Positions 1,971 to 28,489 of a DNA stretch of 28,489 nucleotides are shown one piece after another. Numbering within the stretch: position 1 is the stretch's first letter; the number at the start of each line of letters is the position of its first letter. This DNA comes from Amoebidium appalachense (lineage: Eukaryota; Protista; Ichthyosporea): assembly GCA_963693365.1 (NCBI GenBank), contig CAVNZM010000007.1, positions 3,409,170 through 3,437,658 of the forward strand, read 5' to 3'. Position numbers and translations under genes: made by a program. A model generated the notes under the pieces. It had not been told where the DNA came from. It saw only the letters and a program-made list of their open reading frames with translations, and searched no databases.

Positions 1971-2236
1971 AATCCAATATTGGACTAGTCACGTGGCCTG
2001 GTAACTTTAAGATCACACCACACCAAACCACCTCCGATCCGATCGCGATCAATCTATTACCCACTTCCCACGTTTCCCACTTAAAATCGAAAAAGAGAAA
2101 AAAAAAGGAGACAAAACAAACGATACAGCATTACCCACTTCTAAGTGGGTAAGTGGCCAATGACAACAAACACTTATCGATTTAAACCTAAAACACAACC
2201 ATATAGTACTCGGGAACGGGGAACGGGGACATGCCA

Positions 2237-2320
2237 GGCACACGCGGCACACGAGGCACAGGAGGCACACGCGGCACACGAGGCACAGGAGGCACACGCG
2301 GCATGCGAGGCGCGCGTGCC
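2237..2320. repeat. GC-rich short tandem repeat (GGCACACGCGGCACACGAGGCACAGGA-type units)
   Basis: About 2.5 copies of a 27-bp unit built from 9-bp GGCACACGN subunits. Confidence 0.75.
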
Positions 2321-2401
2321 TGCCAGGGGCCTCCCCGCCCCGCCCAGCCACGCCCAGCCCCGCCGGTGATATGAAAAAATATTATGTGTGCATAGACATG
2401 A

Positions 2402-3244
2402 ATGGCGATCATGGATGATGAAATACACAACGCGCCACAATGGTGCAAATTTCTGGTTGCTCTGGGCATATACAAGCCTTTACATCTAATAACATGGTAC
2501 AACAGCAACATTCAGAAGGGCAGTGGGTTCAGCCTGTTCTGGTATGACGCAAACGATGAGCCGGTGATGAACACGTGGAGTGAAGCCAATGAGATGCACG
2601 CGGTGGGTACGGATACAATAAGAATGGGCGGAATCGATTGGTGTTTTTCCGAGGAGGACATGACCTGGGCAACACGTGTGGGCTGGGTACGCGATACCAA
2701 AGGCTACCTACGACTCTACCTACCGGGCTGGAACCAACACGTGGCTGAGTCACCGGCTGCACACCAGTTGGTGTGCTATTTCCAGGGCATTATCACCGCG
2801 AGTACGGACTTCGAGATCGATCACCGAAACCAATCAGTAAAGGACAACCGACGGACCAATCTCTGCCCGCGACCAAAGGCCTATAACCAGTTCAAGAGAC
2901 GAATCACAGGGCAGCCATGCCGGTTTGTGAACACCCGCGAAGGTTTCTTCGAGGTGCGGTTTCCAATGGTGCACAAGAAAGGGCAATACCACAAGATCGG
3001 CACATACACCGACTACACGGAGGCCGTGCACGTGGCGAGAGCCCATTGGCGTGTTTACTGCACACAGGCACGTGGCTGGACCGACCCAAGCATGGTGCAA
3101 GACTTCGAGGTGTTGATGGAGCCACACATTCCAGAGCCGGAAGTGAAGCCAATCATCGCGCCCGGATTCGTGGCTGACGTCACTGCCCGACCCACCGGCA
3201 AGCTGTGTGTCCCGACCAACAGCATCACGCGCCTGTTTGCCTAA
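2402..3244 (+). CDS. HNH endonuclease with C-terminal AP2-like DNA-binding domain
   Basis: EIDHRNQSVKDNRRTNL..YNQ (HNH_3 type) preceded by FSEEDMTWATRVGWVRDTKGY and followed by FEVRFPMVHKKGQYHKIGTYTDYTEAVHVAR (AP2-like). AATAAA overlaps the stop. True start may be a downstream Met. Confidence 0.82.
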   Translation: MAIMDDEIHNAPQWCKFLVALGIYKPLHLITWYNSNIQKGSGFSLFWYDANDEPVMNTWSEANEMHAVGTDTIRMGGIDWCFSEEDMTWATRVGWVRDTKGYLRLYLPGWNQHVAESPAAHQLVCYFQGIITASTDFEIDHRNQSVKDNRRTNLCPRPKAYNQFKRRITGQPCRFVNTREGFFEVRFPMVHKKGQYHKIGTYTDYTEAVHVARAHWRVYCTQARGWTDPSMVQDFEVLMEPHIPEPEVKPIIAPGFVADVTARPTGKLCVPTNSITRLFA

Positions 3245-3337
3245 TAAAGTAAAGACAAGAAACCAATCAGAAACAGGCCGGGAACGGGGAACGGGGGACA
3301 GGGAGCAAAACGTCTAAGTATGGACACGGGCACAGAC

Positions 3338-3560
3338 GAGAGAGAGAGAGAGAGAGAGAGAGAAAGCTAAGTCTACACGAGAGAGAGAGAGCAGAGAGAG
3401 AGAGAGAGAGAGAGAGAAAAGCTGTCTACACGAGAGAGAGAGAGAGAGAGAGAGAAAAGCTAAGTCTACACGAGAGAGAGAGAGAGAGAGAGAGAAAAGC
3501 TAAGTCTACACGAGAGAGAGAGAGAGAGAGAAAAAAGCTAAGTCTACATGAGCTAAGTCT
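3338..3560. repeat. Compound microsatellite: (GA)n tracts punctuated by AAAGCTAAGTCTACAC units
   Basis: About 5 copies of aaagctaagtctacac (one with an internal deletion) separated by variable-length GA runs. Confidence 0.9.
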
Positions 3561-3566
3561 TGACCC

Positions 3567-3862
3567 GGGCAGGGGGGGGGCAGGGGGGGGGCAGGGGGGG
3601 GCACGTGAGGCAGGGGGGGCACGTGAGGCAGGGGGGGCAGGTGAGGCACATGAGGCACGTGAGGCAGGGGGGCACGTGAGGCAGGGGGGCACGTGAGGCA
3701 GGGGGGGCAGGGGGGGCACGTGAGGCAGGGGGGGCACGTGAGGCACGTGAGGCAGGGGGGGCACGTGAGGCAGGAGGGGCACGCGAGGCAGGGGGCACGC
3801 GAGGCAGGGGGCACGTGAGGCACGTGAGGCAGGGGGGCCGAGGGCCGGGGGGGGGGGGAGGG
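3567..3862. repeat. G-rich minisatellite (GCACGTGAGGCAGGGGGG units)
   Basis: More than 12 imperfect 9/18-bp units with CACGTG cores and G5-G9 runs. Confidence 0.9.
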
Positions 3863-4023
3863 TTTATTTAGAAACAGGGATCTGTATATACTTCACGGGG
3901 GTTTATTTTAGCATACAATACGGGTATAACAATTCCCAACCCACATATTCTGATCAGCATCAATGATCTAAATTCGAGCATATAAATTCCAAAAGGTGAG
4001 TGTCGGTTTTTTCTATATACAGG

Positions 4024-5034
4024 TCATTCATCCTCGGTATGATCGGATTGTACATTCATATTTGGACGGAAAAGGAGAGAGGGACGAGATGTGTTATGGT
4101 ACACAACCAGAGATACACCATTGTCGTCATCACCACTATTTTCACTTTCACTTTCGCTTTCACTTTCACTCTCATCACCTGACTCGCAATAGGCCAATGT
4201 ACGCACACGTTCCAAACGCACATGTTCCTCCAAAGACTCCATCTCCACATACAAAGCAAGCGCATCACCACCACCATCACCACCCAAATCGTCACAACTA
4301 CTCTTACGTCGTTTGACGGAGTCGCCAGAACCGCGTCGGCGAGGCAGACCACAACCAAAATGACACTCTTTCGGCTCGACGTTGTGATATCGCTTCAGAC
4401 GCTGTTCGTTGTTGTACACGTCGCTTGTGAGTTTGGATTTCTGTGCCTGTAGCACTTTAATCTGACGAGAAAGGGCCCCAATCTCGTCCTTCTTCTGGGC
4501 ATTCACGGCGGAGGTAAGGGCATACAAATACGAATACTCGGCCAACACACAACTGAAAACCTTCTTGTCTTCATCGGTCACAGGCCACGGGTCTTGGTCG
4601 TATAGAGCACTGTCACGATATGTCATGAACGCGATGCATTTGCCAACAACGTCATCCCAATCAGCTTTGTAGGAGCGATGTACTTCGACGTCGGGAGAAA
4701 AAATAGAATCGGCATCGATTTTTTTCAAACACAACCGGAAGTCACGAACACCAATTGTTGCTATACCAGAGGTGTCGAGGGTGAGATGTGCACAAACGTC
4801 GAGCAACTTATCCAACAAAAAATCATATTCGTCAATCGAATCGACGACAGTTTCGTTAGTCACCGCGAGGACCTGTGCGTGACGCCACAATCTGGCAAGG
4901 GAAGGCAGGGAAATCCGCATGTGGCTTTGCATGCTCGGGTCACGCTTGTGGGAGGGTCTTGTTTCCAGTGCATCAAAGAAATCAATAATAACCCGAAAAG
5001 TCCCGGAGACACGAGCATAGCGAATAGAAGCCAT
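4024..5034 (-). CDS. Hypothetical protein (~336 aa) with coiled coil and acidic ES-repeat tail
   Basis: Long open frame with natural composition from MASIRY. Coiled-coil EIGALSRQIKVLQAQKSKL, ESESESESES tail, upstream TATA-like (5343-5350) and CCAAT elements. Confidence 0.7.
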   Translation of the reverse strand: MASIRYARVSGTFRVIIDFFDALETRPSHKRDPSMQSHMRISLPSLARLWRHAQVLAVTNETVVDSIDEYDFLLDKLLDVCAHLTLDTSGIATIGVRDFRLCLKKIDADSIFSPDVEVHRSYKADWDDVVGKCIAFMTYRDSALYDQDPWPVTDEDKKVFSCVLAEYSYLYALTSAVNAQKKDEIGALSRQIKVLQAQKSKLTSDVYNNEQRLKRYHNVEPKECHFGCGLPRRRGSGDSVKRRKSSCDDLGGDGGGDALALYVEMESLEEHVRLERVRTLAYCESGDESESESESESENSGDDDNGVSLVVYHNTSRPSLLFRPNMNVQSDHTEDE

Positions 5035-5112: not shown

Positions 5113-5320
5113 CACGGTTCGTAGACGATGGAAAACAGAAAAAAAGTCTCTTCTAAAAAAGGACGCTTACAACACGGCTCGTTCACGATGGAAAACAGAA
5201 AAAAAGTCTCTTCTAAAAAAGGACGCTTACAACACGGCTCGTTCACGATGGAAAACAGAAAAAAAGTCTCTTCTAAAAAAGGACGCTTACAACACGGCTC
5301 GTTCACGATGGAAAACAGAA
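5113..5320. repeat. 60-bp tandem repeat, ~3.4 near-identical copies
   Basis: Unit acgatggaaaacagaaaaaaagtctcttctaaaaaaggacgcttacaacacggctcgttc with exact 60-nt period. Confidence 0.95.
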
Positions 5321-5633
5321 GGCTTCTGCGACGCGAAGAGTCCTTATAAACATCTGCGTTAGCGCAACCACCAAAACGAACCAATGCGCATCACGTAGGG
5401 TTCAACTCAGCAGAAACATAGCCAATTAAAACAATGCTTTAATTTCGCTTGGCCAATTAAAGGGCTCGCCTTTCACGTTTTTTGGAGTGATTATTTCGTC
5501 TGGCCAATCAAGTGGCCTCGCGTTTCGCTTTGCAAAAAAAAAATAAAGTTCGCCGAGTGAACAACCAACCAAACCACGCAAAAAGCACGCCACCACACAT
5601 GCTTCCCATTATGGTGATTACCGCGGCGTTCGG

Positions 5634-5826
5634 GACCAATCAGATCAGCGGTCAAACCACGCGAACCAATCAGACCAACGGTCAAACCGGATGGACCAAT
5701 CAGATCAACGGTCAAAACACACAAACCAATTAGATCAGCGGTCAAACCGGGCGGACTAATCAGATCAGAGGTCATACCGGGCGGACCAATTAGATCAGCG
5801 GTCAAACCGGGCGGACCAACCAGATC
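5634..5826. promoter_or_regulatory. 30-bp tandem array of CCAAT-box units (~6.5 copies) in a divergent intergenic region
   Basis: Consensus GACCAATCAGATCAGCGGTCAAACCGGGCG. It lies between divergent ORFs starting at 5034 (-) and 5929 (+). Confidence 0.7.
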
Positions 5827-5928: not shown

Positions 5929-6198
5929 ATGTGGCCTTGGGTAGTCGCGTCCGCCATCTCATTCGTCCTGTTCTGGTTGACGCTGATATCATGTGACGTT
6001 CATAGAATAAACAGATCACTGAAGCAAAAAACCGGGTCCCACCCAATACTGGACCCATTATGCGACAACTTCATGATTCGCTGGCTGTGGATACTGTTGC
6101 CACTAATGCTTGCATATACATACACCACATCCACACAATTCACCGAGACGGAAACCGCACAGAAAATACTTTCAGGTGCTACACCCGTATCAACTTGA
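5929..6198 (+). CDS. Small two-TM membrane protein (89 aa), hypothetical
   Basis: Hydrophobic segments MWPWVVASAISFVLFWLTLIS and FMIRWLWILLPLMLAY. Confidence 0.55.
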   Translation: MWPWVVASAISFVLFWLTLISCDVHRINRSLKQKTGSHPILDPLCDNFMIRWLWILLPLMLAYTYTTSTQFTETETAQKILSGATPVST

Positions 6199-6526
6199 AA
6201 CGACCCACCCCTTTGAAAGGTGGATCCCACCAGGGCTCTCGCTTGGCAATCACCACGACTTCCGGTACACGAGACTGTGTTTTTGTCAAAACACCGACGA
6301 GTTCACCGACATTCCAACATATATCTGGAATCGACAGGCTGCTCGCCAACGCGTTCACAACAAAGCGGCTTTTTTGATCCACTCCACATACTTGTGTAAT
6401 CAAATCACTCGTCGCGGAAAGAACCACAGTCCCAGAGTGAGCACGCGCGCTGCGCAGCATGTTGTCTAACCGCCCGCGATCTCCCACGTACCAATAACAC
6501 CCTGGGTTGTACACTTCCACGTCCAT
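6179..6526 (-). CDS. Hypothetical protein (115 aa)
   Basis: ORF MDVEVYNPG..FKLIRV with natural composition, convergent with the previous ORF. Confidence 0.5.
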   Translation of the reverse strand: MDVEVYNPGCYWYVGDRGRLDNMLRSARAHSGTVVLSATSDLITQVCGVDQKSRFVVNALASSLSIPDICWNVGELVGVLTKTQSRVPEVVVIAKREPWWDPPFKGVGRFKLIRV

Positions 6527-6724: not shown

Positions 6725-7598
6725 TCAAAGTGCGTGTCCTACATGGCCTGAGTTGTTCCACGGTGTCGGTCCTCTACGCAGGCTGCGAGGCAGGCCGAAG
6801 AACTCGGTTGTGCGGTTGCGGGCGTGGACGGTGTCCAACACGGCGTCCCTTAGCGGCAGACCCGCGTTCTCGACCTGGACGTTGACCCGCTCAAAGAACG
6901 GGTCGAGCCACTCGGAGGCCCAGTCGTCAAGCGCGGTGGTGAAGTCTTGAGCGGCCACAGCGCCGGGGGCCATCGAAACGGGGGCACCGTGCTCGATCCC
7001 GACGCGGTAGGCACCCTCTTGCAGGGTGGACGGAGGCGCGGCACTGGGATGGGGTAGTGCATACGACGTTCTCAAACAGGAGGCTGGGCATGACCCAGTA
7101 GGGTTTCCTGGAGATGGCAGGCGCCACACCATCGACTTCATCCAAGTTGGGATCCCCAAAAACGTTCCAGAAAACCCATCCGTCTCTGGTCGGCTTGGTG
7201 GCGTATACGGGGGGCCGTCGTTCACATCTGTAACCATACCCCATGCCGGCCTCGCTGTCGCTGAGCGTGGTGTCGAATTCATAGTAGTATTCGCTGAGGG
7301 TCGGGTCGGTAACGGGGTGTCCGGGCTTGTACAGTTTGATGTAGCCGCGCATGGAACGTTCGTCGCGCTCATAACGAGTCATGCCATTTACACCAACACT
7401 CTGGACACTGATCTGTCCGTTTGACAGAATGGGAATAGCCACCCTGTGTGCGTGGTCCCATCTCGACTCAATTAGGCACGACCAATCCCGGCCATCGGCC
7501 GTGGATTCTGTAACGCATTCAAATTTGCGGTCTAGGTACCTCGTGAGCTCGTCCTCCGTGGCGATGCGGGTCAGTTCCATGCGCACCGGCATTTTCAT
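6725..7598 (-). pseudogene. ORFan family paralog A, single frameshift at ~7050-7062
   Basis: The N-part (ORF 6927..7598: TRIATEDEL..TRDGWVFWN..KPYWVMPSLLFE) and C-part (ORF 6725..7372: APPSTLQEGAYR..ARNRT..TPWNNSGHVGHAL) together align with the gene at 15741-16560. Confidence 0.8.
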
Positions 7599-7829: not shown

Positions 7830-8120
7830 CTAGTTCTCTTTATTTTCCATGGGCGGCTCCGGCTCGTCATCGGGTTCTAACATCCTTTGCATGACAATCG
7901 CGGTCATGGCCTGGTTCTTGGGCACCCAGTGCTTGAACCCGCACTTCCGCGCGAGCTCGTCGGGCAGGTCGATGTAGCCCTTGTCCGCGAGCTCCCTGGC
8001 GTAGCGCTGCTTCTCGCGCTCGGTGTGGCGTTGCGTTTCCTCTGTGGGGACAACCGTGGCCTGGATGACGGGGGCCTTGCCTGGCTCCTCCTTGAGCTTG
8101 TATTCCCAGCGATACGCCAT
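7830..8120 (-). CDS. Hypothetical protein (96 aa)
   Basis: ATG start, strong GC3 bias, charged helical composition. Confidence 0.6.
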   Translation of the reverse strand: MAYRWEYKLKEEPGKAPVIQATVVPTEETQRHTEREKQRYARELADKGYIDLPDELARKCGFKHWVPKNQAMTAIVMQRMLEPDDEPEPPMENKEN

Positions 8121-9186
8121 ACGTGTGGCACCAATAAAAATACAAACAGACGTTTATTGAGTTTGTGTGTTGTGAAGGCGGGGGCCAGCCCCGCGTGTGT
8201 GTAGTTAAATGTACATGGTGTGTGTGCGTGTGTGGTGAAGCCTGCGGCGCGCGTGCAAACAGGCCGTGTGCGACCTCGTAGAACTGGGCCGTTTCACCGA
8301 CCCTCCACTTCTCGCCGGCGAGCTCGACGACGACGGTATCGGACGTGATGGGGGTGATGAGGCGCGGACGAGGCGCGCACTCCGTGTCCAAGGAGACGCT
8401 TGCAAAGCCCTCCATGACTAGGAAGGAGGGGTGTTCGGGAAGGCACATGCCGCGGACGCGCGGGTGGTAAGGACTTGCAACGATCCAGACGATGCACAGG
8501 TGGCGCAGCCTGCACAGGGTACGGATAGCGCGCATGAACGACGCGGTCCATACTGCGCGGACAGCGACCAGGGTCTCCATGTCGTAGGCGCGCCACGGGG
8601 TGAAGTGGTTCGTCATGGTCAGGCGCTGGACTGCGCGGATGAAGAGCACGGGGGGCGCGGGGTCGGTGTAGGTGTCCTCGTCGTCGCTGGGCAGGTCGGT
8701 GTCGACGTGTGTGATGCGCACGGTCTTACAGTTTGAGATGCGACCGCGGACGAAGCACGCGGACAACTGGACGGCAGAGGCGTTCGCGATGACGCCCTCG
8801 ATGAACAGGTCACCGTAGAAGGTGACATCGACGGTCTCGAGCGCCGTGCAGGCGTCGAAGCCCACGAGGTGCAGTGCGGCGTCGGCCTCGAAGAGCTCTG
8901 ACCTGTTGAGTTGGATCAGACGGTCGCCCTTCTCCGACTGGTCGTCCCATGCGCTCGTTATGCACAGGTGGCGGAGGCCGGGGGGCAGCTTGACGGTGAT
9001 GGACTGGTTCAGATCGCGTGAGAAGAGGGCTACGATGTCCAGGGTGATCACCTCCATGGCGCTCCTGGTCGAGAAGTCGATCATGACGGTGGGGTGGAAC
9101 AGGTGCGCCCTGATGTTGGCTTCGAGGTCTGGGTTGTCGACCTCCTCCTTGAGCAGAAAGTACGGTGCCTCGGTGATAAGCGCCAT
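7867..9186 (-). CDS. Hypothetical protein with weak LRR-like segments; biological end probably ~8200-8240
   Basis: Starts MALITEAPY below a CCAAT/CRE cluster (9259-9358). Segments LPPGLRHLCI, ALETVDV and LRHLCIV. After ~8240 the frame reads through CA-rich UTR-like sequence and a minus-strand AATAAA (~8153) into the next gene. Confidence 0.6.
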   Translation of the reverse strand: MALITEAPYFLLKEEVDNPDLEANIRAHLFHPTVMIDFSTRSAMEVITLDIVALFSRDLNQSITVKLPPGLRHLCITSAWDDQSEKGDRLIQLNRSELFEADAALHLVGFDACTALETVDVTFYGDLFIEGVIANASAVQLSACFVRGRISNCKTVRITHVDTDLPSDDEDTYTDPAPPVLFIRAVQRLTMTNHFTPWRAYDMETLVAVRAVWTASFMRAIRTLCRLRHLCIVWIVASPYHPRVRGMCLPEHPSFLVMEGFASVSLDTECAPRPRLITPITSDTVVVELAGEKWRVGETAQFYEVAHGLFARAPQASPHTHTHHVHLTTHTRGWPPPSQHTNSINVCLYFYWCHTYGVSLGIQAQGGARQGPRHPGHGCPHRGNATPHRAREAALRQGARGQGLHRPARRARAEVRVQALGAQEPGHDRDCHAKDVRTR

Positions 9187-9357: not shown

Positions 9358-10409
9358 TCATACCCGAGCCCGAAGATCGTGCGGACTTCCAGAGCACGGT
9401 GCACGTACGTACGTTCTCCAGAGCGTCCAATACAACCCAAACCAACGCGTGAGGAACCATGTGCTGTTGCCCGGATACGAAGCTAATTTTGAGTCGGCTT
9501 CGCCGACCGTCTTGAGCCATCCAACATTATCCTTGGTCGAGCAGTAGAAAGACTTGCATTTCGGTTCTGCGACGCACGCAGTCTTCACTTCGTCCACCGA
9601 CCCTTCATCGACCGAATATCCCTTCCGGCGTGCCCGTCATCCAATCGCTGCACCTAATTGGGTCCGGACACCGGCCGGCCCGACTGCCAGAGCACAGTTC
9701 CGTCGGCGTCGCGCACGTAGGCGACACCGTCGTTCTCGATTGTCAGGATCGCCGTGCCCAGCTTCCCCTTGCGGTAGGTGTTCGACGCCCATATGACCGC
9801 ACCCTTTGCGTCGTACACCACCAGATTGTTGTCCTCCTGCATGACGAGAGAGTAGGGCGCGGTACCGTTGTTGGTCTTGTTGTGTGCCCAGAGGACCTTG
9901 TTGCTGCCGCGTTCGGCGACTATGGTGTTCCCATCTCTCTCCTGCACCAGTTTGTACCGACCGTCGGGCGACACGATCGCCTCATAGGATGTGCTGGACC
10001 CCACGATCTTTTTGCCGCTTCCCACCATGCTACTGGCTGGTGGCTCCTCCTTCTTCACGACAGCGGTGGGGGCGTTGGGACAGGAGGGACAGTCGGGGCA
10101 CTTCTCCTTGGGGGGGCAGGTCGGGCAGGTCGGGCACGTGGGGCACTTTGTGGGGGCCAGGGTGGGGCACGTCGGACAGGTGGGGCAATCCGGGCACTTC
10201 TTTTCGGGGGGGCAGACCGGACAGCTGTTGCATATGCCGCAGGGGCGCCTGCACTTGAGGGTGGTGATGTAGCGGTAAAAGCGGGGCCGGTTGACGTCGT
10301 ACACGACGAGGAGGACGAACAGGGCACACAGGCACCACACCCACGTAGACACACTGGGGCGGCGGGGGAAAACCTGTGACGGGGGCAAGTCCATTTGGTA
10401 GACCCACAT
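9358..10409 (-). pseudogene. Membrane-anchored CPxC-repeat / bulb-type (B) lectin / PAN-apple-like protein, broken by TAG at 9654-9656 and a frameshift at ~9601
   Basis: TM WVWCLCALFVLLVVY, stalk CPDCPTCPTCP, B-lectin SPDGRYKLVQERDGN..LW..LVMQEDNNLVVYD..IWASNT..LTIENDG..LWQS. Beyond the stop: DGHAGRDIRSMKG/SVDEVKTACVAEPKCKSF..GWLK (PAN-like). Confidence 0.8.
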
Positions 10410-10440: not shown

Positions 10441-10848
10441 TTATTTGAGCGGCTCGCGGCGCAGCGCGGATGCCACGCGGGCAGTCCAGGCGCACCTGCC
10501 ACGCAAGTTCGCGGCGAATGCCTGATATGGAAGCGTCTGTGAGAACCACTCGCCCTTGTTGACGTCCCAGTAGCGGAGCCCGTTGTTCTTCGATATGTGG
10601 ACCCGGGGACAGCTGCGGCAGTCCGGAACGGTCTCGCTGTCAGCGTCGAAGCCCTCGGCGAGGTACTTGTCGTACAGCGCCTGTCCGCACGCGATTGCGT
10701 CGCAGCCCGCGTAGGGTCCAGGGTCGGGCAGTGGACGACCTTCCATGGCCGCACGCACCGACCGCCACACCGACGCCGCCTGGTGCCGAGCCGCGATTGC
10801 AGCAAACATCAGCGCGCATAGGACACACACAACCAGTACCAGATACAT
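10441..10848 (-). CDS. Small secreted/membrane Cys-containing hypothetical protein
   Basis: N-terminal hydrophobic MYLVLVVCVLCALMFAAIAA, with CDAIAC and CRSC. Confidence 0.65.
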   Translation of the reverse strand: MYLVLVVCVLCALMFAAIAARHQAASVWRSVRAAMEGRPLPDPGPYAGCDAIACGQALYDKYLAEGFDADSETVPDCRSCPRVHISKNNGLRYWDVNKGEWFSQTLPYQAFAANLRGRCAWTARVASALRREPLK

Positions 10849-12120: not shown

Positions 12121-12276
12121 CGCCTACTCACTGATGTGCGGGACGGGGTTGGAAGTGCGGGTCCGTGGGGAAAGGCCCGTCGTGCCATGGCGGCGGAGAA
12201 GTCGATGTGTGAAGCCATGTCGTCAAGAATACGGGAGCGCGCCTTCGACATCCTACAGGTGGGTGAGCATAAAAGC

Positions 12277-12645: not shown

Positions 12646-12653
12646 ATAAAATT

Positions 12654-17290: not shown

Positions 17291-17346
<56 letters not shown>
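17291..17346. repeat. (GT)n microsatellite between convergent genes
   Basis: About 28 GT units. Confidence 0.97.

Positions 17347-17348
<2 letters not shown>

Positions 17349-18946: not shown

Positions 18947-18992
<46 letters not shown>

Positions 18993-20673: not shown

Positions 20674-20676
<3 letters not shown>
18947..20676 (+). CDS. Reverse transcriptase-RNase H of Ngaro/DIRS element (no native start in window)
   Basis: LRELLASYPD..FGVDIGY, KYRRIHHLS, ADVQAAFR, LPFGLKSSP, YVDD; RNase H ATDAAG..IELLAI..CDN..ADAISR. Confidence 0.92.
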
Positions 20677-20705
<29 letters not shown>

Positions 20706-21768
20706 AGATCTCCCGTTCCGGAGCAACACTGGCAGATTGGCCCCCCACTTTGCTCCGGCCGAGCTGCTTCGAGCCACCACTACCCTGCAGGAATGCCAGG
20801 CCCTGAGTCTCAACCTCGACTCTCGGGCCTTTTACTCCCGGGTGCAAAAAGTGTTCATCGATTTCTGTGTGGCATCTCGGCTGCAATCCTCCTCCGGGTC
20901 CTCCCTCCCGGCCTCCCCACACACCGTGCAACTTTTTCTCGCCTGGTGTGCCCAACGAGGGGTACAGGCCTCTTCCTTAACCGGCTACAATTCGGCCATC
21001 ACCAGGCTCCACCTCGACATGGGCCTCCCTGCTCCCTACCCCCACGACAAGTCTCTGGCCTGGTTCCTACGGGGGGTGGGCCGATGGCAGCTTTCTCACA
21101 ACATCCGACCCCGCTCATCCACCAGGGAACCCCTCCTCCCCTCCCACCTCCACCTACTCCACGGCCAGTGCCCCACCAAGGCCTCCTCGGCCAATCTCCG
21201 GCTATGGACGGCCCTCATCGTCGGTTTCTGTGGTCTCCTCCGTTCAGGGGAATTTACCTCCAAGACCCTGACTTCTTTCGACCCGTCCCGTCACGTTAAA
21301 CGGAAGGACGTGACCTTCAGCTACACCCCCACCGGTACTTTGTCCCATGCCACCCTCCACCTGCCAACCTCTAAGACGGATGTACAGGCCCGAGGTGTCA
21401 ACGTCACCCTAGCTGCCCTGCCCCTCACCCACTTCTCCCCAGCCCATCTCCTCCGGCAGTTCCTGGATACAACGTCCGGTCATTTCGACGACCCCCTCTT
21501 CAGTCTCGGTGGCATCCCCTACACCAAGAGTGCTTTCTCTGCCGATTTCCGTGCCCTCCTCTCCCGGGCAGGCCTCTCACCCTCCCGGTTTGCCGGACAC
21601 AGCCTCCGCATCGGGGGGGCCACAGCACTGGCTGAGGCCGGGGTCGACGACTCCCGGATCAAACAACTCGGCCGGTGGTCCTCCGACTGCTTCCTGATCT
21701 ATACCCGACTTCGTCCGGCCTCCATTGCTGCCACCACCACACGTGTATTCGCCTCTATTCTTAAGTGA
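20677..21768 (+). CDS. Tyrosine recombinase of Ngaro/DIRS element
   Basis: Catalytic set LLRSGE, SKTD, GHSLRIGGAT, GRWSS, LIY, with an N-terminal core-binding-like region. No early ATG; the frame opens right after the RT stop. Confidence 0.92.
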
Positions 21769-21796
21769 AACCTTTGGAGCAAGCATACTGCTCTCG

Positions 21797-21887
21797 TGCC
21801 GTGGTTTACAACCATTGCAGGTTCACTTTCGTCCAAGGGGATGTCCCCCTAGAGGCAACACACGTCCCGGAGTAGTTTTTCATAGAG
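21797..21887 (+). repeat. Split direct repeat B1 (91 bp)
   Basis: Identical to 22376-22466. Confidence 0.95.
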
Positions 21888-22071
21888 GTTTTATTTGTGG
21901 AAATTATTGACATAAATATTTTTCTGGGTAAACACGTAGGATGGGTGTTCGATACCAACATAACCATGTAGGCTTCATTTCGTGTTTTAGCAGTTAGCGG
22001 TTGGCTGCCCGCACACGGGCACCTATTAGCCAGTCAAAACATCAGATACCACAGATCACTAGACCGAGTTA

Positions 22072-22150
22072 TGATTGGCTCGGATCAGATTTCACATATC
22101 ACTAGTTCGATTTTTGATTGGTTCAGATCGGTAGGCTTAGGTATATAAGC
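22072..22150 (+). promoter_or_regulatory. Promoter-like motifs within the presumed A2 repeat
   Basis: TGATTGG at ~22072 and ~22115, TATATAA at ~22142. AATAAA follows at ~22354. Confidence 0.5.
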
Positions 22151-22375
22151 ACGACAGTTTTTAGCAGATCAGCAAGCTACAAACACATCTTCTGTGTTTA
22201 GCATCCACAGCCTTACAGCTATATATTCCTTTTCACCCACCCACCTACACCCACACACAACCCCCATTGATCCACACATACGTGCTGTTTTTTTTTTTTT
22301 CACGGGGCGAAGCCTTCCCCCGTTTTTTTTTGGGCACATGGACCTCACGGATCAATAAATTGATGACTGGGGGCT

Positions 22376-22466
22376 TGCCGTGGTTTACAACCATTGCAGG
22401 TTCACTTTCGTCCAAGGGGATGTCCCCCTAGAGGCAACACACGTCCCGGAGTAGTTTTTCATAGAG
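22376..22466 (+). repeat. Split direct repeat B2 (91 bp), 3' terminus of the Ngaro element
   Basis: Identical to 21797-21887. Confidence 0.95.
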
Positions 22467-22575
22467 ATTGGAGGATGTGGGGGGGTGATCGACATCTTAT
22501 GAGTTGTCCGTAGACGCGTCTACCACAGCTACACAGATACACATACAGTCAGTTTTTTTCCTGTATATATACGAC

Positions 22576-23055
22576 ATGGTACCAGTTCACAGATATATAT
22601 GCGACTGGAATGGCTGTAATAGACCGTTTCCAAACCTTCATGCTTTGAAAAGGCACGAGTTGGTACATACAGGAGCACGACCATTTGAATGTCCATGGCC
22701 CGACTGTCACAGACATTATTCTCAGAAAGCGACACTCGACGCCCACTACAAGCTTCATACCGGCGAATTAGCATTTAAGTGTGACTGGCCTGGATGCAAC
22801 ATTGGGTATAGCTGTTGGAGCAAATTGAAAATGCACATGCACAGACACCAAAATACCAGACCATTCAAATGCCCATGGGAAGGCTGCGAGTCAAGTTTTG
22901 TGGACAAGTACACACTCAATAAACACATGACCACGCACTCCGAGGACCGCCTGTTTGCGTGCACATGGACTGGATGTAAGAAAAGTTACCGACACGAAGC
23001 CAGCTTAAAAGTCCACCTGAAAAAACACACCATTATTACACAACAAACCAAATAG
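22576..23055 (+). CDS. Intronless five-finger C2H2 zinc-finger protein (159 aa)
   Basis: Five CxWxxC-x12-HxxxH fingers with linkers TGARPF, TGELAF, QNTRPF and SEDRLF. Confidence 0.9.
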   Translation: MVPVHRYICDWNGCNRPFPNLHALKRHELVHTGARPFECPWPDCHRHYSQKATLDAHYKLHTGELAFKCDWPGCNIGYSCWSKLKMHMHRHQNTRPFKCPWEGCESSFVDKYTLNKHMTTHSEDRLFACTWTGCKKSYRHEASLKVHLKKHTIITQQTK

Positions 23056-23122: not shown

Positions 23123-23791
23123 ATGATGGCAACGTACGACGAGGCATGGGTCAGGGATCGACTGGCCCAGGCAGAGGGCGGACGGTGCGAGGTGCTGACA
23201 CCGGCAGGGCGGATCGACCTACTGACGGACACGCAGGTCATCGAGGTCAAGCGTGTGGCGCAGTGGAAGGCGGCGCTCAGACAAGTGCAGGCATACCAAC
23301 GCTTCTACCCTGATCGACAGGCTCGTGTGCACCTGTTTGGTTACGCGTCGATCGAGGTTTATAGGATTGCCGCGGAGACGATGGAGTCTCTTGGGGTGTT
23401 TGTGATGGTGGAGCCCGACACTCTGCGGCTAATTTGGGGGTGTCATGGGGACATCTGCACAACCCGGACAAAACCAACGGAGAGGGGACAGGAATCGAAC
23501 GAAATACGCTTTCTAAAGGACGTAGCGACAGGCGCACGCGGAACACACAGCTTTGGTATCGAGAATGGGACCTGGGTTACAACATCGGGGATGGCCGGTT
23601 GCATGCGACAGTGGGCTGATATAAATATGTTGGACGATTGCGAGGTGGGGATCAAGAGACTGGGAACGGTGCTGACACAGGTTTTGGGCGGGTCATCGTT
23701 TGTTCCCGCAGGAGAGCGTGTCTCTATAGGGAAACCTGGCAGACACACCCGTGCCCACAAGATAGAGTATAGCAAGATCATGGCATATTAG
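23123..23791 (+). CDS. PD-(D/E)XK nuclease-domain protein with possible C-terminal winged-helix (D5-C-like) domain
   Basis: EAWVRDRLA..GGRCEVLTPAGRIDLLTDTQVIEVK..WKAALRQVQAY..YP..VHLFG matches the nuclease domain often fused to KilA-N in giant viruses. The C-terminal assignment is weak. Confidence 0.75.
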   Translation: MMATYDEAWVRDRLAQAEGGRCEVLTPAGRIDLLTDTQVIEVKRVAQWKAALRQVQAYQRFYPDRQARVHLFGYASIEVYRIAAETMESLGVFVMVEPDTLRLIWGCHGDICTTRTKPTERGQESNEIRFLKDVATGARGTHSFGIENGTWVTTSGMAGCMRQWADINMLDDCEVGIKRLGTVLTQVLGGSSFVPAGERVSIGKPGRHTRAHKIEYSKIMAY

Positions 23792-24228: not shown

Positions 24229-24633
24229 TTATTCGGCGTCTGTCAGCTGCGGCTCGGATTCACGATGGCGGCGCTTTGCCTGGCGGCGGTCGGTTAAGGT
24301 GCGCTGCAATTCAACCAAGGCCTGATTGATGACATCTTTCTCCCGGCGCAGCCTTATGATCTCCGCACCGAGGCCCCTTATACCGTGGCAGATCACAGAG
24401 GTGGCGTCGCTGGGGTCGGGGCGGGTGCGGAGATAGGGGGTGACGATGCCGTTGGTCACGGATCCCCAGACGGCGCACAAGCGTTCAAACGGGGAACCCG
24501 TGTTGTTGCTGTCATCCATCAGCTGGACGAGCCTGGTCTTTTCGTCCTCGGTCAGCCGCGCGGCATCCGGGTAGGCCAGACGGATGGTGTCCAAGATCAT
24601 GTCAATGTCTATTTCCATTGTGGTGTATGACAT
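24229..24633 (-). CDS. Hypothetical coiled-coil protein (~134 aa)
   Basis: Starts MSYTTMEIDIDM. Basic C-terminal RRQAKRRHR. Upstream TATA (24671-24678) and CCAAT at 24701, 24730 and 24761. Confidence 0.6.
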   Translation of the reverse strand: MSYTTMEIDIDMILDTIRLAYPDAARLTEDEKTRLVQLMDDSNNTGSPFERLCAVWGSVTNGIVTPYLRTRPDPSDATSVICHGIRGLGAEIIRLRREKDVINQALVELQRTLTDRRQAKRRHRESEPQLTDAE

Positions 24634-24858
24634 GTGTGCATGTGATGATGAAATGTGCTGTCGTGTGGTGATTATATACACGCGATATGCGTAGGCCCCA
24701 CCAATCAGAGATGCCCGCCAGGCCATCAACCAATGAATGGTGATGCTGATTCCGAATCTACCAATCCAAAACTACTGGGCAAGGGTATCATTGGATTGGT
24801 AGATCTGAACACGTCGACCAATCACAAATCTTGAGACCTGAAATCGCGCCTATAAACA

Positions 24859-26448
24859 TCACATGATGGGGCACACGATGACATCCTCCTTGTCGTCGTC
24901 TTGGGCATACCGCTCGTTGAGGATTCGAATGGCCTGGGCGCGGGCGGGCGCAGAGGGCGAGACGTGGGCGAAGAACGCGAGGAAGTCGCGGTCCTGGTAG
25001 CTCAGGAGCGTGGCCATCGGCCCAGACTCGTACCTTGCAATCAGACCCACCATCTGGCGCCACAGGGGATACGTGTCTTTGGGCTTCGGGGGCGTTGTCC
25101 ATGTCCTTGGAAGTAGGATCCTTGTCCAGATCGGCTATGCCGAATTTCGCGACGCCTGCGCCGTAGGCGAGGCACATCTCTAGGCGGTTCGGGGGCGGGC
25201 CGTCGCCGTGTGGCCCCTCCTCCGAGTTGTATGGGTCTTCGAAGTTGATGCCCCGCTTGTCGACAACCATCACATAGTCATCGGACAGGATGGCGGTCAG
25301 CCTGGGCGTGTTGATGATGTACTCGTCACGAACGGGGTCCCTGACGACCATGCTGGCCTTGTAGTCGTCGAGCTGCTCGCAGGCTTCGAAGGAGGTGTCG
25401 ACACCGGGGCCTTCGAAGGAATCGTCGCTGGCGCGCACGCGCAGCCACAGGGACGCGGTGGGGCGGGGGCTCGGGGGCTGGTTGGGTTCGTCGGGGTCGC
25501 TGGGGTCGGTCAGCTTCGCGCGCTTGGGGGGCGGAGAACGTGGCTCGTCGGGCTCGCGGGGCTTATCGGTGGCCGGGGGGCGGGGTTCCAGATCAGGCCG
25601 GCCGTTGCACATGGCGTGGACGATCGCCAACAGCGCGCCTCGGTCAAGGACGGCGCGACCGCGGACTGCACTGGGGTCGCGCTGGCCCAGCGCAAAGACG
25701 AGGCGTAACTTGGGCCACCCGCCAGGCAACCACGGTTCGCGGTACGAGCGGCCGTGAATGTACCCTTCGACGACCGGCTCGATGTGCAGGTAGACCGCGT
25801 CGGCGTCGGCGACGCCGTCGATGGCTTCGAAGGGGGTTGGGATCTCGTCGGCGTCGTCGTCCGAGAAACTCGTGATGTTGAAGTAGCGACCGTCATCGGT
25901 CTTGAAGAGGACCAGCCGGCTCAGGAGCTCGGGTCTTTCGTTGTAGGAGTTTTGCCCCGGGACGCGGTAAACGACAGCGACGGCGAGGCCACCCAGCTTG
26001 AACCCTGCGGCGTCCATTTGGCGCCTGGCCTCGGCCAGGTCGAGCGCAAAGGGATCCTCGAGCGAGGGGGGTGTGAGATTCAGGTACCGCCCGACGTGCC
26101 TGGTGTGATGGTCAGGGTCCTCGTCGGAGAAGGGATCTTGCATTGATTCGTACGTGTCTTCGAGCTTCTCGTAGAACATGTGGTAAAGACTGGCTTTCAG
26201 TTGGGCGGCGGTCATGTTGCAAAAGCCGATCGGAGAGTGCGCGTGCTCGTCGCGTAGGGTAATGCGGACTCGCATTGCCGGATCAAGAGAATCAAGGTAC
26301 TTTCTCCATTTAGCAATCTCCTGCATGTGATTGCGAATGTTGGTAGTGGCGGGTACGTCCCGGGGGGGTCGTTAACGGCAACGAGACATTCCAAGTCGGC
26401 GCCATCGCACCTGACAAAGGAATTCTTCCACTCATCCACGAACGCCAT
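24859..26448 (-). pseudogene. Large hypothetical gene (~530 aa) apparently split by frameshifts at ~26328 and ~25090
   Basis: Three consecutive GC3-biased frames: MAFVDEWKNSF..FAIT / MQEIAKWRKY..KDMDNA / PKPKDTYPLWRQMVGL..VCPIM. Contains an NLS-like PPPKRAKL. Confidence 0.6.
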
Positions 26449-26613
26449 GGCACAGATAAGGAACGAAACCAATGAAAAACGACAAGCATGCTTGAATGCG
26501 CGTGTGGACTGACATTTATTGGCGGTGCACGTGTGTCATGATGTCCAACCGGGCGGCGCGGACCTTTTGCACCCCAATGCCAGTGTGGGTTTTTGTTAAT
26601 AAAGCGCGACCAC

Positions 26614-27195
26614 CTACCGCCGACACACCTGGTAGTCAACCACGTAGCGTACATTCTCGCGTAATGTGCGCATATGAGAAACGCCGAACAGCCGTCCGTG
26701 CTTGTTTGTCTTGCGATCCAGACACACCTCGAGTGCGCCCTTGGAAGGGTACCAGGCACCGTCGGGGCACAGGATCTCGAGCGTCACCGTGAGCCGCAGG
26801 CTCTTGTGGATGTTGCCGTTGGAGTCGATCGTGTTGGACTCGGTGTGCGGGACCAGCGGCTTGCGGCCGTCCATCAGGCCCCAGGCGTTGGCCACCTCCA
26901 GGTCCACGTAGCTGTTCTCGGACCCCGCGTCGTACACGAGCTTGAACGTCTTGGCCTGGCCCTGCACGCGCACCGTCACGGTGTGCGTCTTGCTGCACTC
27001 GGGCACCAGGAACACCGGCACCTTGCCGTGGCGCGTCGTCGTGCGCCGCACGCCCGCGGCCGCGGCCGGGCCCGAGTGCGACGTCGAGCGCCGCGTGCAC
27101 GCGCAGCCAGAGAGCGCGTTGGACGTGCGGCGGCGGCGGCGGCGGCGGCGCAGCGTGCTGGTGGCGCGGCGCTTCTGTCGTTTGATGTGGCGCAT
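26614..27195 (-). CDS. Retropepsin-like (clan AA) aspartic protease with Arg-rich N-terminus
   Basis: VTVRVQGQAKTFKLVYDAGSENSYV (D-[TS]-G equivalent is DAG), flap-like TIDSNG, C-terminal LFGVSHMR (LLG.D.L equivalent), N-terminal RRRRRRR. Confidence 0.65.
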   Translation of the reverse strand: MRHIKRQKRRATSTLRRRRRRRRTSNALSGCACTRRSTSHSGPAAAAGVRRTTTRHGKVPVFLVPECSKTHTVTVRVQGQAKTFKLVYDAGSENSYVDLEVANAWGLMDGRKPLVPHTESNTIDSNGNIHKSLRLTVTLEILCPDGAWYPSKGALEVCLDRKTNKHGRLFGVSHMRTLRENVRYVVDYQVCRR

Positions 27196-27262
27196 GTTAC
27201 CTACAACGCCCACAATGTCCGCGGTGCGAGGCACAAACGCGGTTATTTGTCTAGATCGGGGC

Positions 27263-27499
27263 CTACACCTTCTTGAGCTTGGACCAGCAGCGCTTGCGGC
27301 AGCACTTGCGCTTGCTCTTCCTGCTGCCCGGCACGAGGCCGCGGCAGTTGCCCTGGTAGCGGCACATGATGTACTTGAGGTTGTAGTCGGCGACCTGCTT
27401 GAGCCACGCGGGGTCGGCCGAGGGGTACGACTTGTACAGGTCGCCGCCGATGAGCGCCTTGACGTGCGAGTCGGTGATGCCCGTGCTTTCCTTTAGCAT
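27263..27499 (-). CDS. Small basic Cys-rich protein (78 aa)
   Basis: MLKESTG..CRYQGNCRG..RKSKRKCCRKRCWSKLKKV with strong GC3 bias. Confidence 0.55.
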   Translation of the reverse strand: MLKESTGITDSHVKALIGGDLYKSYPSADPAWLKQVADYNLKYIMCRYQGNCRGLVPGSRKSKRKCCRKRCWSKLKKV

Positions 27500-27583
27500 T
27501 TGCAGGTGCCCGCAAAAACATGGTGCACGCGGCGCCGCGGGGCTTTCTTTTGCAGATCCGCGAGAAAATGTGCGCTGCAGTGC

Positions 27584-27877
27584 ATGGATGACATGGCGAA
27601 GCTCGGCGACCCGGGCGAGGTCAAGCGCAGGGAGCTGGAGGCGCTGGAGAGGCAGATGGAGCTCGAGGCGGGCACGCCGGCGATGGTGGTGGACCGAGAA
27701 CATCTCCCCGATGCGTTTGTCACCCCGGACATGCGCGAGATCACGGCAACCGATTACGATGGCTCAGTCTTTGACGAACTCTTCCTGTTTGGGGGCTATT
27801 TGTATAACGCCGTGCCTGCGGATCTAATGGCATACAGACCGGAGGTTTATTTCTCACCCGACTTCTTAGATAGCTAG
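27584..27877 (+). CDS. Small acidic hypothetical protein (97 aa)
   Basis: MDDMAKLGDPGEVKRRELEALERQ.. with GC3 bias, divergent from the previous gene. Confidence 0.55.
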   Translation: MDDMAKLGDPGEVKRRELEALERQMELEAGTPAMVVDREHLPDAFVTPDMREITATDYDGSVFDELFLFGGYLYNAVPADLMAYRPEVYFSPDFLDS

Positions 27878-28181
27878 TGGTCGTTACTGTTCTTGCGCTG
27901 GCACGCCGGTAATCCGGCCGCCAGGGGGGGACGCGCGGTTTTGTAGGCAACTGTTCATACGTAAGCGCGATGGCGACAAGCACAAGCACAGCGAGGAAGG
28001 TAAAAGAGTCTGACGCTAGGCGGTGGCCAGCCGTTGCTCCCGTCCGCGGTGCTGGCAACGAATTCACGACGGTCGTATTCTCCAGTGGCAGTGCGGCGTC
28101 GGACACGCTTTCGCGGTGTTTGCCACAACCGTTGCTGGCACGTAAGGCGACCATTGAGACCACCACCATTGTCATCTTCAC
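27741..28181 (-). CDS. Possible membrane-protein remnant
   Basis: Hydrophobic FTFLAVLVLVAIAL. It overlaps the + gene and has no clear start. Confidence 0.25.
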   Translation of the reverse strand: MKMTMVVVSMVALRASNGCGKHRESVSDAALPLENTTVVNSLPAPRTGATAGHRLASDSFTFLAVLVLVAIALTYEQLPTKPRVPPWRPDYRRASARTVTTTSYLRSRVRNKPPVCMPLDPQARRYTNSPQTGRVRQRLSHRNRLP

Positions 28182-28489
28182 TTAATTCTCAGCAAGACTT
28201 AGAAGTTGAGTTTGGTATTTATTTATTAGTTGTTGTAGTTTGTTTCCTTTTCCTTTCTTCATTTCTTTCTTTCTTTTCCGTTTCCGTGTACACGACATCT
28301 TAGATCTGTGTACGTATCGACATACTTAGCTCGCGCACACGTATTGTCGTTTGCGTCAAAATCTATATATGTCATCCAATCATATCTCGTTTGTATTTTC
28401 CCAAATATAGTAACTTACATTCCTTTCTCATTCCTTTCCCACGACGTAGCATTGTGCTATGTTCTTCAACTATTAGGAATAATTATATT

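What the first reader, a model, noticed from the sequence alone, without database searches (positions are those of the whole stretch)
2011..28185. Decaying endogenous large-DNA-virus block of unknown lineage embedded among host retrotransposons
Seen: about 25 short intronless genes packed on both strands, bounded on the left by a truncated Gypsy and invaded by an Ngaro element. Known: HNH-AP2, BRO-like, T5orf172, KilA-associated PD-(D/E)XK, DUF5763-like and penton-like genes are typical accessory content of Nucleocytoviricota. Inference: this is part of a giant endogenous viral element in a protist- or fungus-like host, and the many ORFans suggest a poorly sampled lineage. No core replication or major capsid gene lies in the window, so the lineage cannot be assigned here.
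Basis: partly seen in the sequence, partly recalled or inferred. Interest (0 to 1): 0.8.

Follow-up and report, generated by a model that had tools for sequence, protein, structure and literature searches.

The report
Young multi-copy giant-virus end, foldback-capped
This is one damaged copy of a gene-dense, likely giant-virus element that begins with a folded-back DNA end inside a host retrotransposon, and public sequencing runs hold near-identical versions at several times to about thirty times the depth of neighbouring or minor sequences, so it likely spread recently and is not an old relic.

Summary
The block is real: 27 intronless gene models fill 72% of 22.9 kb, and no capsid, polymerase, ATPase, primase or VLTF3 profile matches. 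Three corrections. (1) It starts at about 1711, not 2011, with a 267-nt Y-shaped foldback inside the Gypsy RT. (2) It does not end at 28185: a host repeat interrupts it at 28170 and a high-depth contig runs 3.7 kb further. (3) Only this copy is decaying: high-depth contigs differ from it by 0.4-0.6%, lack five frame breaks, and lie about 6-29 times deeper than flank or minor contigs. The only named close relatives of two genes (penton-like, DNA-binding-like) share one 183-kb contig of a Daphnia sinensis assembly; two accessory families occur in giant-virus records. Best reading: the end of a recently amplified, large nuclear DNA virus, probably Nucleocytoviricota, integrated many times in a protist-like host. 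Lineage and host are not shown; an Amoebidium-type GEVE is the closest published parallel. New member of a known kind; interest 0.5.

The parts
1..1713 (-). Host Gypsy RT(end)-RNaseH-integrase, cut off at the element's left end (flank, not part of the element)
   Evidence: Pfam rve/Integrase_H2C2; translation; depth 52-55 in X2, 0 in X1, X4, X17 over 1-968; an X2 Gypsy contig leaves the window at 1713 and runs on for ~1.6 kb
1711..1977 (.). Y-shaped foldback: 50-nt arms (98% complementary) enclosing a weak hairpin and a perfect 30-bp hairpin (1867-1927); likely the element's terminus
   Evidence: DNA fold -135 kcal/mol, z -18; depth at 1800 is 1111 in X4, where the Gypsy is absent, like 1349-1496 at 2009-2072
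1978..3870 (.). Subterminal repeat zone: 9-mer arrays 2236-2311 and 3574-3837, 40-mer GA-rich array 3394-3552
2402..3244 (+). HNH endonuclease gene, optional among copies (AP2 tail is a recalled resemblance, no profile hit)
   Evidence: PHROG E 1.8e-5; depth 5-32 in X4 against ~430 inside, X4 joint 2194->3280
4024..5034 (-). 336-aa ORFan with acidic tail
   Evidence: no family
5113..5826 (.). Tandem arrays: 60-mer x3.5 (5113-5320) and CCAAT-bearing 30-mer x6.5 (5633-5826)
5929..6526 (.). Two small ORFans (5929-6198 +, 6179-6526 -)
6725..7598 (-). ORFan, paralogue of 15726-16560; frame broken near 7045 in this copy
   Evidence: self-BLASTP E 4e-32 and 1e-17; break absent from high-depth contigs of X1, X2, X4, not flagged in the X17 contig
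7830..9186 (-). Two ORFans (7830-8120; ~8240-9186, which reads on past its likely end in this copy)
9654..10409 (-). Membrane-anchored-looking protein with CPxCP repeats and a bulb-type (mannose-binding) lectin domain
   Evidence: B_lectin E 2.4e-7
10441..10848 (-). 135-aa ORFan with hydrophobic N-terminus
10895..12251 (-). Penton (minor capsid)-like gene, frame broken near 12128 in this copy
   Evidence: Atlas features 0.95-0.97 to penton/V18-19/DUF5901 clusters, recognition below the tool's threshold; relatives P0043/P0041 at 37-47%; N-terminal piece matches P0043 at E 2e-10
12277..14407 (.). Four ORFans (12277-12645 -, 12654-13250 -, 13384-13869 +, 13859-14407 -)
14695..14976 (.). CCAAT-bearing 32/75-mer tandem array
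15726..16560 (+). ORFan paralogue of 6725-7598; frame broken near 16022 in this copy
   Evidence: break absent from high-depth contigs in 4 of 4 runs
16762..17235 (+). Small Cys/His protein with a weak DUF5763-like C-terminus
   Evidence: DUF5763 E 0.041 on 34 aa, under cut-off
17346..18239 (-).
   Evidence: 40 relatives, best named 56%; clade 100/100; relatives in viral records L001-L006
18318..18932 (-). T5orf172-domain gene, probably cut at its 5' end by the Ngaro junction
   Evidence: E 0.0012; ATG lies 14 nt from the poly-C
18947..22469 (+). Host Ngaro retroelement, 5'-truncated at a 45-nt poly-C: RT-RH, tyrosine recombinase, B1-A2-B2 end (secondary insertion)
   Evidence: depth 15,000-130,000 in X2, X4, X13; an X4 contig carries the gene at 22576 with other sequence left of 22466
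22576..23055 (+). Intronless C2H2 zinc-finger gene at low depth (minor variant or captured host-type gene)
   Evidence: zf-C2H2 E 6e-19; contig depth 16/35/87 in X4/X13/X2; GC3 0.49
23123..23791 (+). PD-(D/E)XK-type nuclease gene, optional among copies
   Evidence: 43-57% to nuclease domains fused to KilA-N or to the 17346-type domain; joint 23042->23810 in 3 of 4 runs
24229..26448 (-). ORFan 24229-24633 and a long ORFan broken near 25088 and 26361 in this copy
   Evidence: no Atlas hit
26614..28169 (.). Aspartyl-protease-looking ORF 26614-27195 (motif resemblance recalled, no profile or PDB hit) and three small ORFans; the element runs on beyond 28169 in other copies
   Evidence: X4 contig of 5264 nt at depth 249 leaves at 28169, X2 and X13 contigs likewise
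28170..28489 (.). High-copy host repeat inserted into the element (flank)
   Evidence: depth 4,000-16,000 in X2, X4, X13; loose end at 28170 in X3

Best explanation
The block is the left end of a gene-dense DNA element, likely a large (giant-type) eukaryotic virus, that likely entered this host's chromosomes many times in the recent past, and the window holds one copy, joined by its folded-back end to a Gypsy and since hit by an Ngaro, a second host repeat and several frame breaks. Shown: the anatomy, the foldback, the high-depth near-identical versions, the continuation beyond 28169, optional nuclease genes. Inferred: (a) viral origin in or near Nucleocytoviricota, with core genes lying further in, as accessory genes cluster at genome ends; (b) transcription by the host's nuclear RNA polymerase II, from excess CCAAT and AATAAA between genes; (c) integration anchored at the terminus, with copies cut at different distances from it, from the fall in depth away from the left end; (d) the HNH and PD-(D/E)XK genes move as selfish inserts; (e) the host is a protist, an Amoebidium-like ichthyosporean being a guess (about 50%).
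For: Depth: long block contigs have median depth 337 in X2 against 25.5-55 for the Gypsy flank (6-13x) and 355 in X4 against 12-27 for minor contigs (13-29x). Youth: 30 other letters in 7,806 bases (X2) and 82 in 12,734 (X4); breaks near 7045 and 12128 are absent from the deep contigs in 3 of 4 runs, near 16022 and 25088 in 4 of 4, near 26361 fully in 2 and partly in 2 of 4; CpG o/e 1.02-1.09 in the block against 0.72 in the Ngaro. Terminus: foldback z -18, covered with the adjoining 2009-2072 at 1100-1500 in X4 where the Gypsy is absent; a Gypsy contig of X2 runs on at 1713. Gradient: X4 depth falls 449 to 228 along 12 contigs, Spearman -0.97, not explained by GC (rho -0.48, p 0.11); X2 -0.63. 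Virus: penton-like features; GHT06_003851 and GHT06_003867 on one 183,011-bp contig; the 17346 family in a complete 154.6-kb record with an NCLDV capsid gene; KilA-N-fused nuclease relatives in a giant-virus bin. Host-type signals: CCAAT 37 against 16.5 +/- 3.8 expected outside arrays, AATAAA 19 against 2.9.
Against: No hallmark gene is in the window and none could be linked to it. The penton call is weak by the tool's own measure (recognition 1871, threshold 2300) and both folds failed (pLDDT 37 and 33.5). The tool warns that contig depth is not a copy number; high depth could come from free viral DNA. No listed contig bridges the Gypsy junction or the Ngaro poly-C junction. In X1 the terminal 2.2 kb is shallower (1-11) than the interior (~35), against a simple terminal-repeat model. 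The gradient is weak in X2 and absent in X1. AATAAA lies sense behind only 7 of 27 genes and antisense behind 4; the background for that test included coding DNA, so its p (4e-4) is too small. The 17346 and nuclease families also turned up in a bacterial MAG contig (L009). The host is not identified; the Ngaro RT has no named close relative (best 52%, unnamed).
Confidence: 0.6

Rival explanations
1. The high depth comes from a virus that persists or replicates as free DNA in the cultured host, and the window is one of a few integrated (or mis-joined) copies.
For: Kilobase-long unbranched contigs at 228-450 depth in X4 (5,264 nt at 249) mean very uniform sequence; a fall in depth from one end can come from replication starting at a terminus; CpG is not depleted.
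Against: The excess over minor contigs is of similar order (about 6-29x) in X2, X4 and X13 from different samples; intermediate-depth variants and several structural joints point to a population of distinct copies.
Confidence: 0.2
2. A giant DNA transposon (Plavaka-type giant repeat or similar) that carries virus-derived cargo and jumps by a transposase lying outside the window; the foldback is its terminal repeat.
For: Multi-copy, near-identical, end-anchored; no core viral gene in at least 23 kb; giant repeats of intron-poor genes are described beside GEVEs in PMC11244446 (section 7).
Against: No transposase profile matched; a penton-like gene is present; two genes keep company on a 183-kb contig in another assembly; no cluster of tyrosine recombinases.
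Confidence: 0.1
3. An old, single decayed GEVE, with the foldback being an unrelated MITE that happens to sit at the junction.
For: This copy carries at least five frame breaks, two retro-insertions and a lost segment at the Ngaro; the X17 contig is not flagged as differing at 7045, so at least that break seems real. Foldback depth exceeds interior depth 2-3x in X4, as a dispersed MITE would.
Against: 0.4-0.6% distance to deep contigs that lack the breaks; the foldback and 2009-2072 have like depth in X2 and X4.
Confidence: 0.05
4. An unusually large Polinton-like virus or adintovirus.
For: The best Atlas clusters are Preplasmiviricota pentons; such elements integrate in many young copies with terminal repeats; 44 occur in one Amoebidium genome (PMC11244446 section 10).
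Against: At least 26.6 kb, of which 23 kb seen hold no pPolB, MCP, ATPase or integrase, leaves little room in a ~30-kb genome; relatives lie on a 183-kb contig.
Confidence: 0.05

Closest known systems
Amoebidium GEVEs related to Mamonoviridae (Medusavirus, Clandestinovirus); Sarre et al. 2024, PMC11244446 (sections 7, 8, 10, 19, passages, and part 1 of 2 of the supplement PDF read; figures not visible)
   Same: Gene-rich intronless blocks among host repeats, secondary TE insertions, many insertions per genome, none with all core genes, isolate-specific presence; the host lives on freshwater arthropods, which would fit relatives in a Daphnia assembly.
   Different: No marker gene here to place it; the paper stresses high divergence among insertions, whereas this family is about 0.5% diverged; no foldback terminus or end-anchored truncation is described in the parts read; no JmjC or DNMT gene in the window. 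If the host is Amoebidium, this locus is probably among the 132 insertions already annotated.
183,011-bp contig of the Daphnia sinensis assembly (GHT06_003851, GHT06_003867)
   Same: Closest named relatives of the penton-like gene (47%) and of 17346-18239 (56%), 16 locus tags apart on one contig.
   Different: Annotated as hypothetical Daphnia proteins; its DNA could not be fetched, so whether it is a virus, a cobiont's or parasite's DNA or a Daphnia insertion is untested.
Medusavirus (PMC8557863, passages read)
   Same: No own RNA polymerase, nuclear cycle, many ORFans, AATAAA-like motif; fits the host-type signals here.
   Different: The word CCAAT does not occur in that paper, its AATAAA motif was not enriched between genes, and no gene here was matched to Medusavirus (not testable).
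Ngaro insertions in endogenous virophages (EMALEs) of Cafeteria burkhardae, PMC8547959 (passages read)
   Same: Ngaro with A1-[ORFs]-B1A2B2 structure inserted in endogenous viral DNA, itself sometimes nested in a retroelement.
   Different: EMALEs are small, AT-rich virophages with pPolB, rve integrase and capsid genes; none of these is here, and this Ngaro lacks A1 and ORF1.
Latent integrated giant viruses (punuivirus 10.1101/2024.09.03.611062; Ectocarpus EVEs PMC13236599; search listing and start of abstract only)
   Same: Integrated giant-virus DNA that is not an inert relic.
   Different: Those are full-length and shown to reactivate; here neither completeness nor activity is shown.

Membership tests
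Nucleocytoviricota GEVE | Hallmark genes (MCP, PolB, A32 ATPase, D5, VLTF3) | tested here: inconclusive
   None matched in 40 ORFs or 28 ORFs; the element runs on beyond 28169 and lost a part at the Ngaro; no genome is held
Nucleocytoviricota GEVE | Dense intronless genes on both strands, many ORFans | tested here: met
   27 models, 72% coding; intron absence by ORF continuity only
Nucleocytoviricota GEVE | Accessory families shared with giant viruses | tested here: met
   17346 family in a record with an NCLDV capsid gene; nuclease relatives fused to KilA-N in a giant-virus bin; also one bacterial MAG contig
Nucleocytoviricota GEVE | Joined to host chromosome DNA | tested here: inconclusive
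   Three host repeats abut it in the assembly and empty-site contigs exist at 1713, 22466 and 28169, but no listed contig bridges a junction
Nucleocytoviricota GEVE | Genome of giant-virus size | tested here: inconclusive
   At least 26.6 kb; relatives on a 183-kb contig
Amoebidium Mamonoviridae-related GEVE | MCP or VLTF3 grouping with Medusavirus/Clandestinovirus; Amoebidium host; CG hypermethylation | not testable with these tools
   No marker gene, no host genome, no methylation data
Polinton / adintovirus / Polinton-like virus | pPolB or primase-helicase, integrase, MCP, penton and ATPase within ~15-40 kb between terminal repeats | tested here: not met
   Only a penton-like gene in 23 kb
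Plavaka-type giant repeat | Flanking Plavaka transposase, tandem tyrosine recombinase genes | tested here: not met
   No such profile in the window; the only recombinase belongs to the Ngaro; the far end is not seen
Penton (single jelly-roll minor capsid protein), gene 10895-12251 | Single jelly-roll fold | tested here: inconclusive
   Atlas 0.95-0.97 but recognition under threshold; models pLDDT 37 and 33.5; Foldseek no match at E<=0.001; no PDB sequence match
Ngaro retrotransposon, 18947-22469 | RT-RH, tyrosine recombinase, B1-A2-B2 split repeats | tested here: met
   structure as in PMC8547959
Ngaro retrotransposon, 18947-22469 | 5' A1 repeat and ORF1 (gag) | tested here: not met
   Self-BLAST shows no second copy of A2 in the window; the element starts at the poly-C: a truncated copy

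The most novel reading that the evidence does not exclude
An undescribed lineage of large nuclear DNA viruses, so far seen only here and on an unnoticed 183-kb contig in a Daphnia assembly, has hairpin-closed, Y-shaped genome ends and integrates by an opened hairpin end (nicked about 50 nt from the fold and joined to host DNA at a short shared core). It has recently spread to ten or more near-identical, end-anchored copies and may still be active.
Probability: 0.2. Interest if true: 0.8.

Novelty: new member of a known kind. Interest (0 to 1): 0.5.

Why it matters
How giant-virus DNA gets into eukaryotic chromosomes is open: PMC11244446 (section 10) calls it apparently stochastic. This locus gives a sharp virus-host junction at a structured end, and depth data that suggest many young copies share that end. 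Comparing junctions across copies would test directly whether integration is end-driven. It also flags an unrecognised virus-like 183-kb contig in a public Daphnia assembly. If the host is Amoebidium, the insertion itself is probably already catalogued and only the terminus, the youth and the optional nuclease genes are new.

Tried and rejected
No host genome is held, so the rest of the contig could not be scanned. Exact look-ups of 14 window proteins found none in the collection. The word-indexed search with the penton-like frame found nothing. Scans of viral contigs with single window proteins or the penton alignment found nothing; both metagenome scans found nothing; the terminal 29-mer has no exact match in viral contigs; the paralogue alignment was too variable to scan with. 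Both AlphaFold models were unusable and the Foldseek search on one was meaningless. PDB sequence searches gave nothing useful; the Atlas gave no hit for the 24788-26326 ORF; no phage match for the nuclease; no Rfam match. The penton profile and the HNH gene did not match the virus records that were held (4 of 5 handles were not searchable). No RNA holder was listed. The Ngaro RT search did not name the host. Rejected: my first reading of 1978-2011 as more Gypsy RT, because X4 covers it deeply without any Gypsy. Rejected: that all breaks are assembly errors, because the X17 contig is not flagged as differing at 7045; the two breaks in G runs (near 25088, 26361) may still be errors. Paper searches for Daphnia sinensis with Nucleocytoviricota, endogenous viral + capsid, giant virus, the accession stem, and Mamonoviridae + endogenous + Daphnia gave 0 papers each; giant virus + hairpin + endogenous viral element + junction + microhomology gave 0. 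The library lacks most subscription journals. Figures, part 2 of the supplement PDF and the insertion coordinates of PMC11244446 were not seen and may already cover this locus. Earlier scan notes held nothing on this genome or sequence.

Full report
Observation. The ORF map and my 27 gene models cover 72% of the 22,936 bases between 1711 and 28169 outside the Ngaro, 9 on the plus and 18 on the minus strand. Pfam confirms the Gypsy integrase at the left, the Ngaro RT and tyrosine recombinase, a bulb lectin, a C2H2 protein and weak HNH and T5orf172 matches among 40 ORFs. NCBIfam and PHROGs on 28 ORFs add only HNH support. A finer scan gives DUF5763 at E 0.04. No capsid, PolB, A32, D5 or VLTF3 profile matched. 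BRO, AP2 and aspartyl protease are resemblances from recall without a profile hit.

Bounds. A 267-nt foldback at 1711-1977 has 50-nt arms at 98% and an inner perfect 30-bp hairpin; it folds as a Y at z -18. The Gypsy RT reading stops at it. In run X4 the Gypsy has depth 0 over 1-968 while 1800 and 2009-2072 lie at 1100-1500; in X2 a Gypsy contig leaves the window at 1713 and runs on. So the element starts near 1711. At the right, contigs of X2, X4 and X13 leave the window at 28169, one of them with 3.7 kb more at depth 249, and 28170 onward is a repeat at depth 4,000-16,000. The family is therefore at least 26.6 kb long. The Ngaro lacks its 5' repeat and ORF1, starts at a 45-nt C run 14 nt from the ATG of the T5orf172 gene, and ends in B1-A2-B2 (structure as in PMC8547959, passages). 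An X4 contig shows other sequence left of 22466, so an Ngaro-free version exists. No listed contig bridges the Gypsy junction or the poly-C junction, and the tables were cut, so a mis-join at these places is not excluded.

Copy state. Twenty of 24 listed runs hold the stretch 8000-17900 in part, 15 of them half or more. I laid 6 of them as contigs (X1, X2, X4, X17 on 1-14500; X3, X2, X4, X13 on 14001-28489). Long block contigs have median depth 337 in X2 and 355 in X4 (depths typed from table 8, leaving out the contigs of the two optional genes, the C2H2 gene, the Gypsy and the low-depth variants). That is 6-13 times the Gypsy flank in X2 and 13-29 times the minor contigs in X4. The tool warns that such depth is no copy number, so this is an order of magnitude only. 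The window differs from these contigs at 0.38% (X2, 11 contigs) and 0.64% (X4, 12 contigs) of bases. Frame breaks of this copy near 7045 and 12128 are absent from the deep contigs in 3 of 4 runs, near 16022 and 25088 in 4 of 4, near 26361 wholly in 2 and partly in 2 of 4. The X17 contig over 7045 is not flagged as differing, so at least one break seems real. CpG o/e is 1.02 and 1.09 in the two halves of the block against 0.72 in the Ngaro. The HNH gene and the PD-(D/E)XK-type gene are skipped by joints and lie at low depth in some runs. In X4 depth falls steadily from 449 near 6 kb to 228 near 25 kb (rho -0.97, n 12); in X2 the trend is weaker (rho -0.63, n 11); X1 shows none and is shallow over the terminal 2 kb.

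Relatives. The penton-like frame scores 0.95-0.97 against penton, V18-19 and DUF5901 clusters, but with recognition under the tool's threshold; folds failed. Among 1.84 billion representatives it has 2 hits, one true (P0041) and one repeat protein. P0041 is Daphnia sinensis GHT06_003851; its cluster holds a 476-aa unnamed member that aligns over the whole gene, including the piece before the break. The gene at 17346-18239 has 40 relatives; the best named is GHT06_003867 at 56%, on the same 183,011-bp contig, and a tree of all 41 rows puts both in a 4-member clade at 100/100 (long-branch warning for the link to the next clade). More distant members occur in brown-algal assemblies and in viral records L001-L006; the record behind L001 carries an NCLDV capsid gene. 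The nuclease domain at 23123 is fused to KilA-N in a giant-virus bin and to the 17346-type domain elsewhere. One bacterial MAG contig also holds these families.

Mechanism. The anatomy fits the end of a large DNA virus: structured terminus, tandem repeat zone, accessory and duplicated ORFans, optional endonucleases. CCAAT (37 against 16.5 +/- 3.8 outside the arrays) and AATAAA (19 against 2.9) are in excess between genes, which suggests use of the host's nuclear polymerase II, as in Medusavirus, which has no RNA polymerase (PMC8557863, passages). I infer repeated recent integration anchored at the terminus, followed by truncation and retroelement invasion (0.6). Free viral DNA as the source of depth (0.2), a giant transposon with viral cargo (0.1), an old single remnant with a chance MITE (0.05) and a large Polinton-like virus (0.05) are the rivals. 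That the foldback is an opened hairpin end is speculation from its shape and from recalled poxvirus and parvovirus termini; contigs cannot test it.

Comparison. The closest published case is the set of 132 Mamonoviridae-related GEVEs of Amoebidium, an ichthyosporean from freshwater arthropod cuticle (PMC11244446; sections 7, 8, 10, 19, passages and part of the supplement). A Daphnia-associated ichthyosporean would explain the D. sinensis link (a reference title in PMC11286789 names one as a common Daphnia parasite; passages), but the host is not shown and the Ngaro RT gave no named close relative. The block works like a GEVE; membership of Nucleocytoviricota stays unproven without a hallmark gene; the Polinton and Plavaka tests are not met in the window. 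Five searches found no paper on the D. sinensis contig.

Verdict. Real feature, new member of a known kind, with bounds and age corrected. Interest 0.5; 0.8 if end-driven integration of a still active, undescribed lineage is borne out (probability 0.2).

Noticed in passing
window 13748-14429 and 3901-5160: Run X17 (listed as DNA, guessed) covers the block in gene-sized patches with adapter-bearing loose ends; 13748-14429 lies at depth 874 and starts 22 nt before the ATG of the ORFan 13859-14407. This looks like a transcript library, but the run is not on record as RNA, so it is only a hint that this gene is expressed.
   Followed up: no
window 18947-18991 and 20677-20705: Both Ngaro frames (RT and recombinase) are preceded by long C runs (45 and 29 nt) followed by GATCTCCC; neither frame has a start codon of its own near the run. 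Could be a frame-change signal or homopolymer inflation; relatives P0046/P0047 also have proline-rich RT starts.
   Followed up: partly
window 1702-1713 and 1974-1983: The Gypsy target beside the left arm shares a CAATAT core with the perfect 10-bp palindrome just inside the right arm, and three bases are shared by Gypsy and arm; may mark a short-homology crossover.
   Followed up: partly
window 22576-23055: Intronless five-finger C2H2 gene at low depth and low GC3 inside the block; may be a captured host gene present in few copies.
   Followed up: partly
window 9654-10409: Bulb-type lectin behind a CPxCP stalk and a hydrophobic segment; a candidate surface or attachment protein.
   Followed up: no
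window 26524-26613 and 15512-15721: Contigs of several runs hold other sequence at these places, so the commoner versions carry segments that this copy lacks or the reverse.
   Followed up: no
L009:1-5070: A contig filed in a Verrucomicrobiales MAG holds several genes of the giant-virus-associated 17346 family and the nuclease fusion; likely mis-binned viral DNA.
   Followed up: partly
P0041, P0002 (D. sinensis contig): Both proteins look cut or shortened against their relatives, which suggests frame errors or decay on that contig.
   Followed up: no
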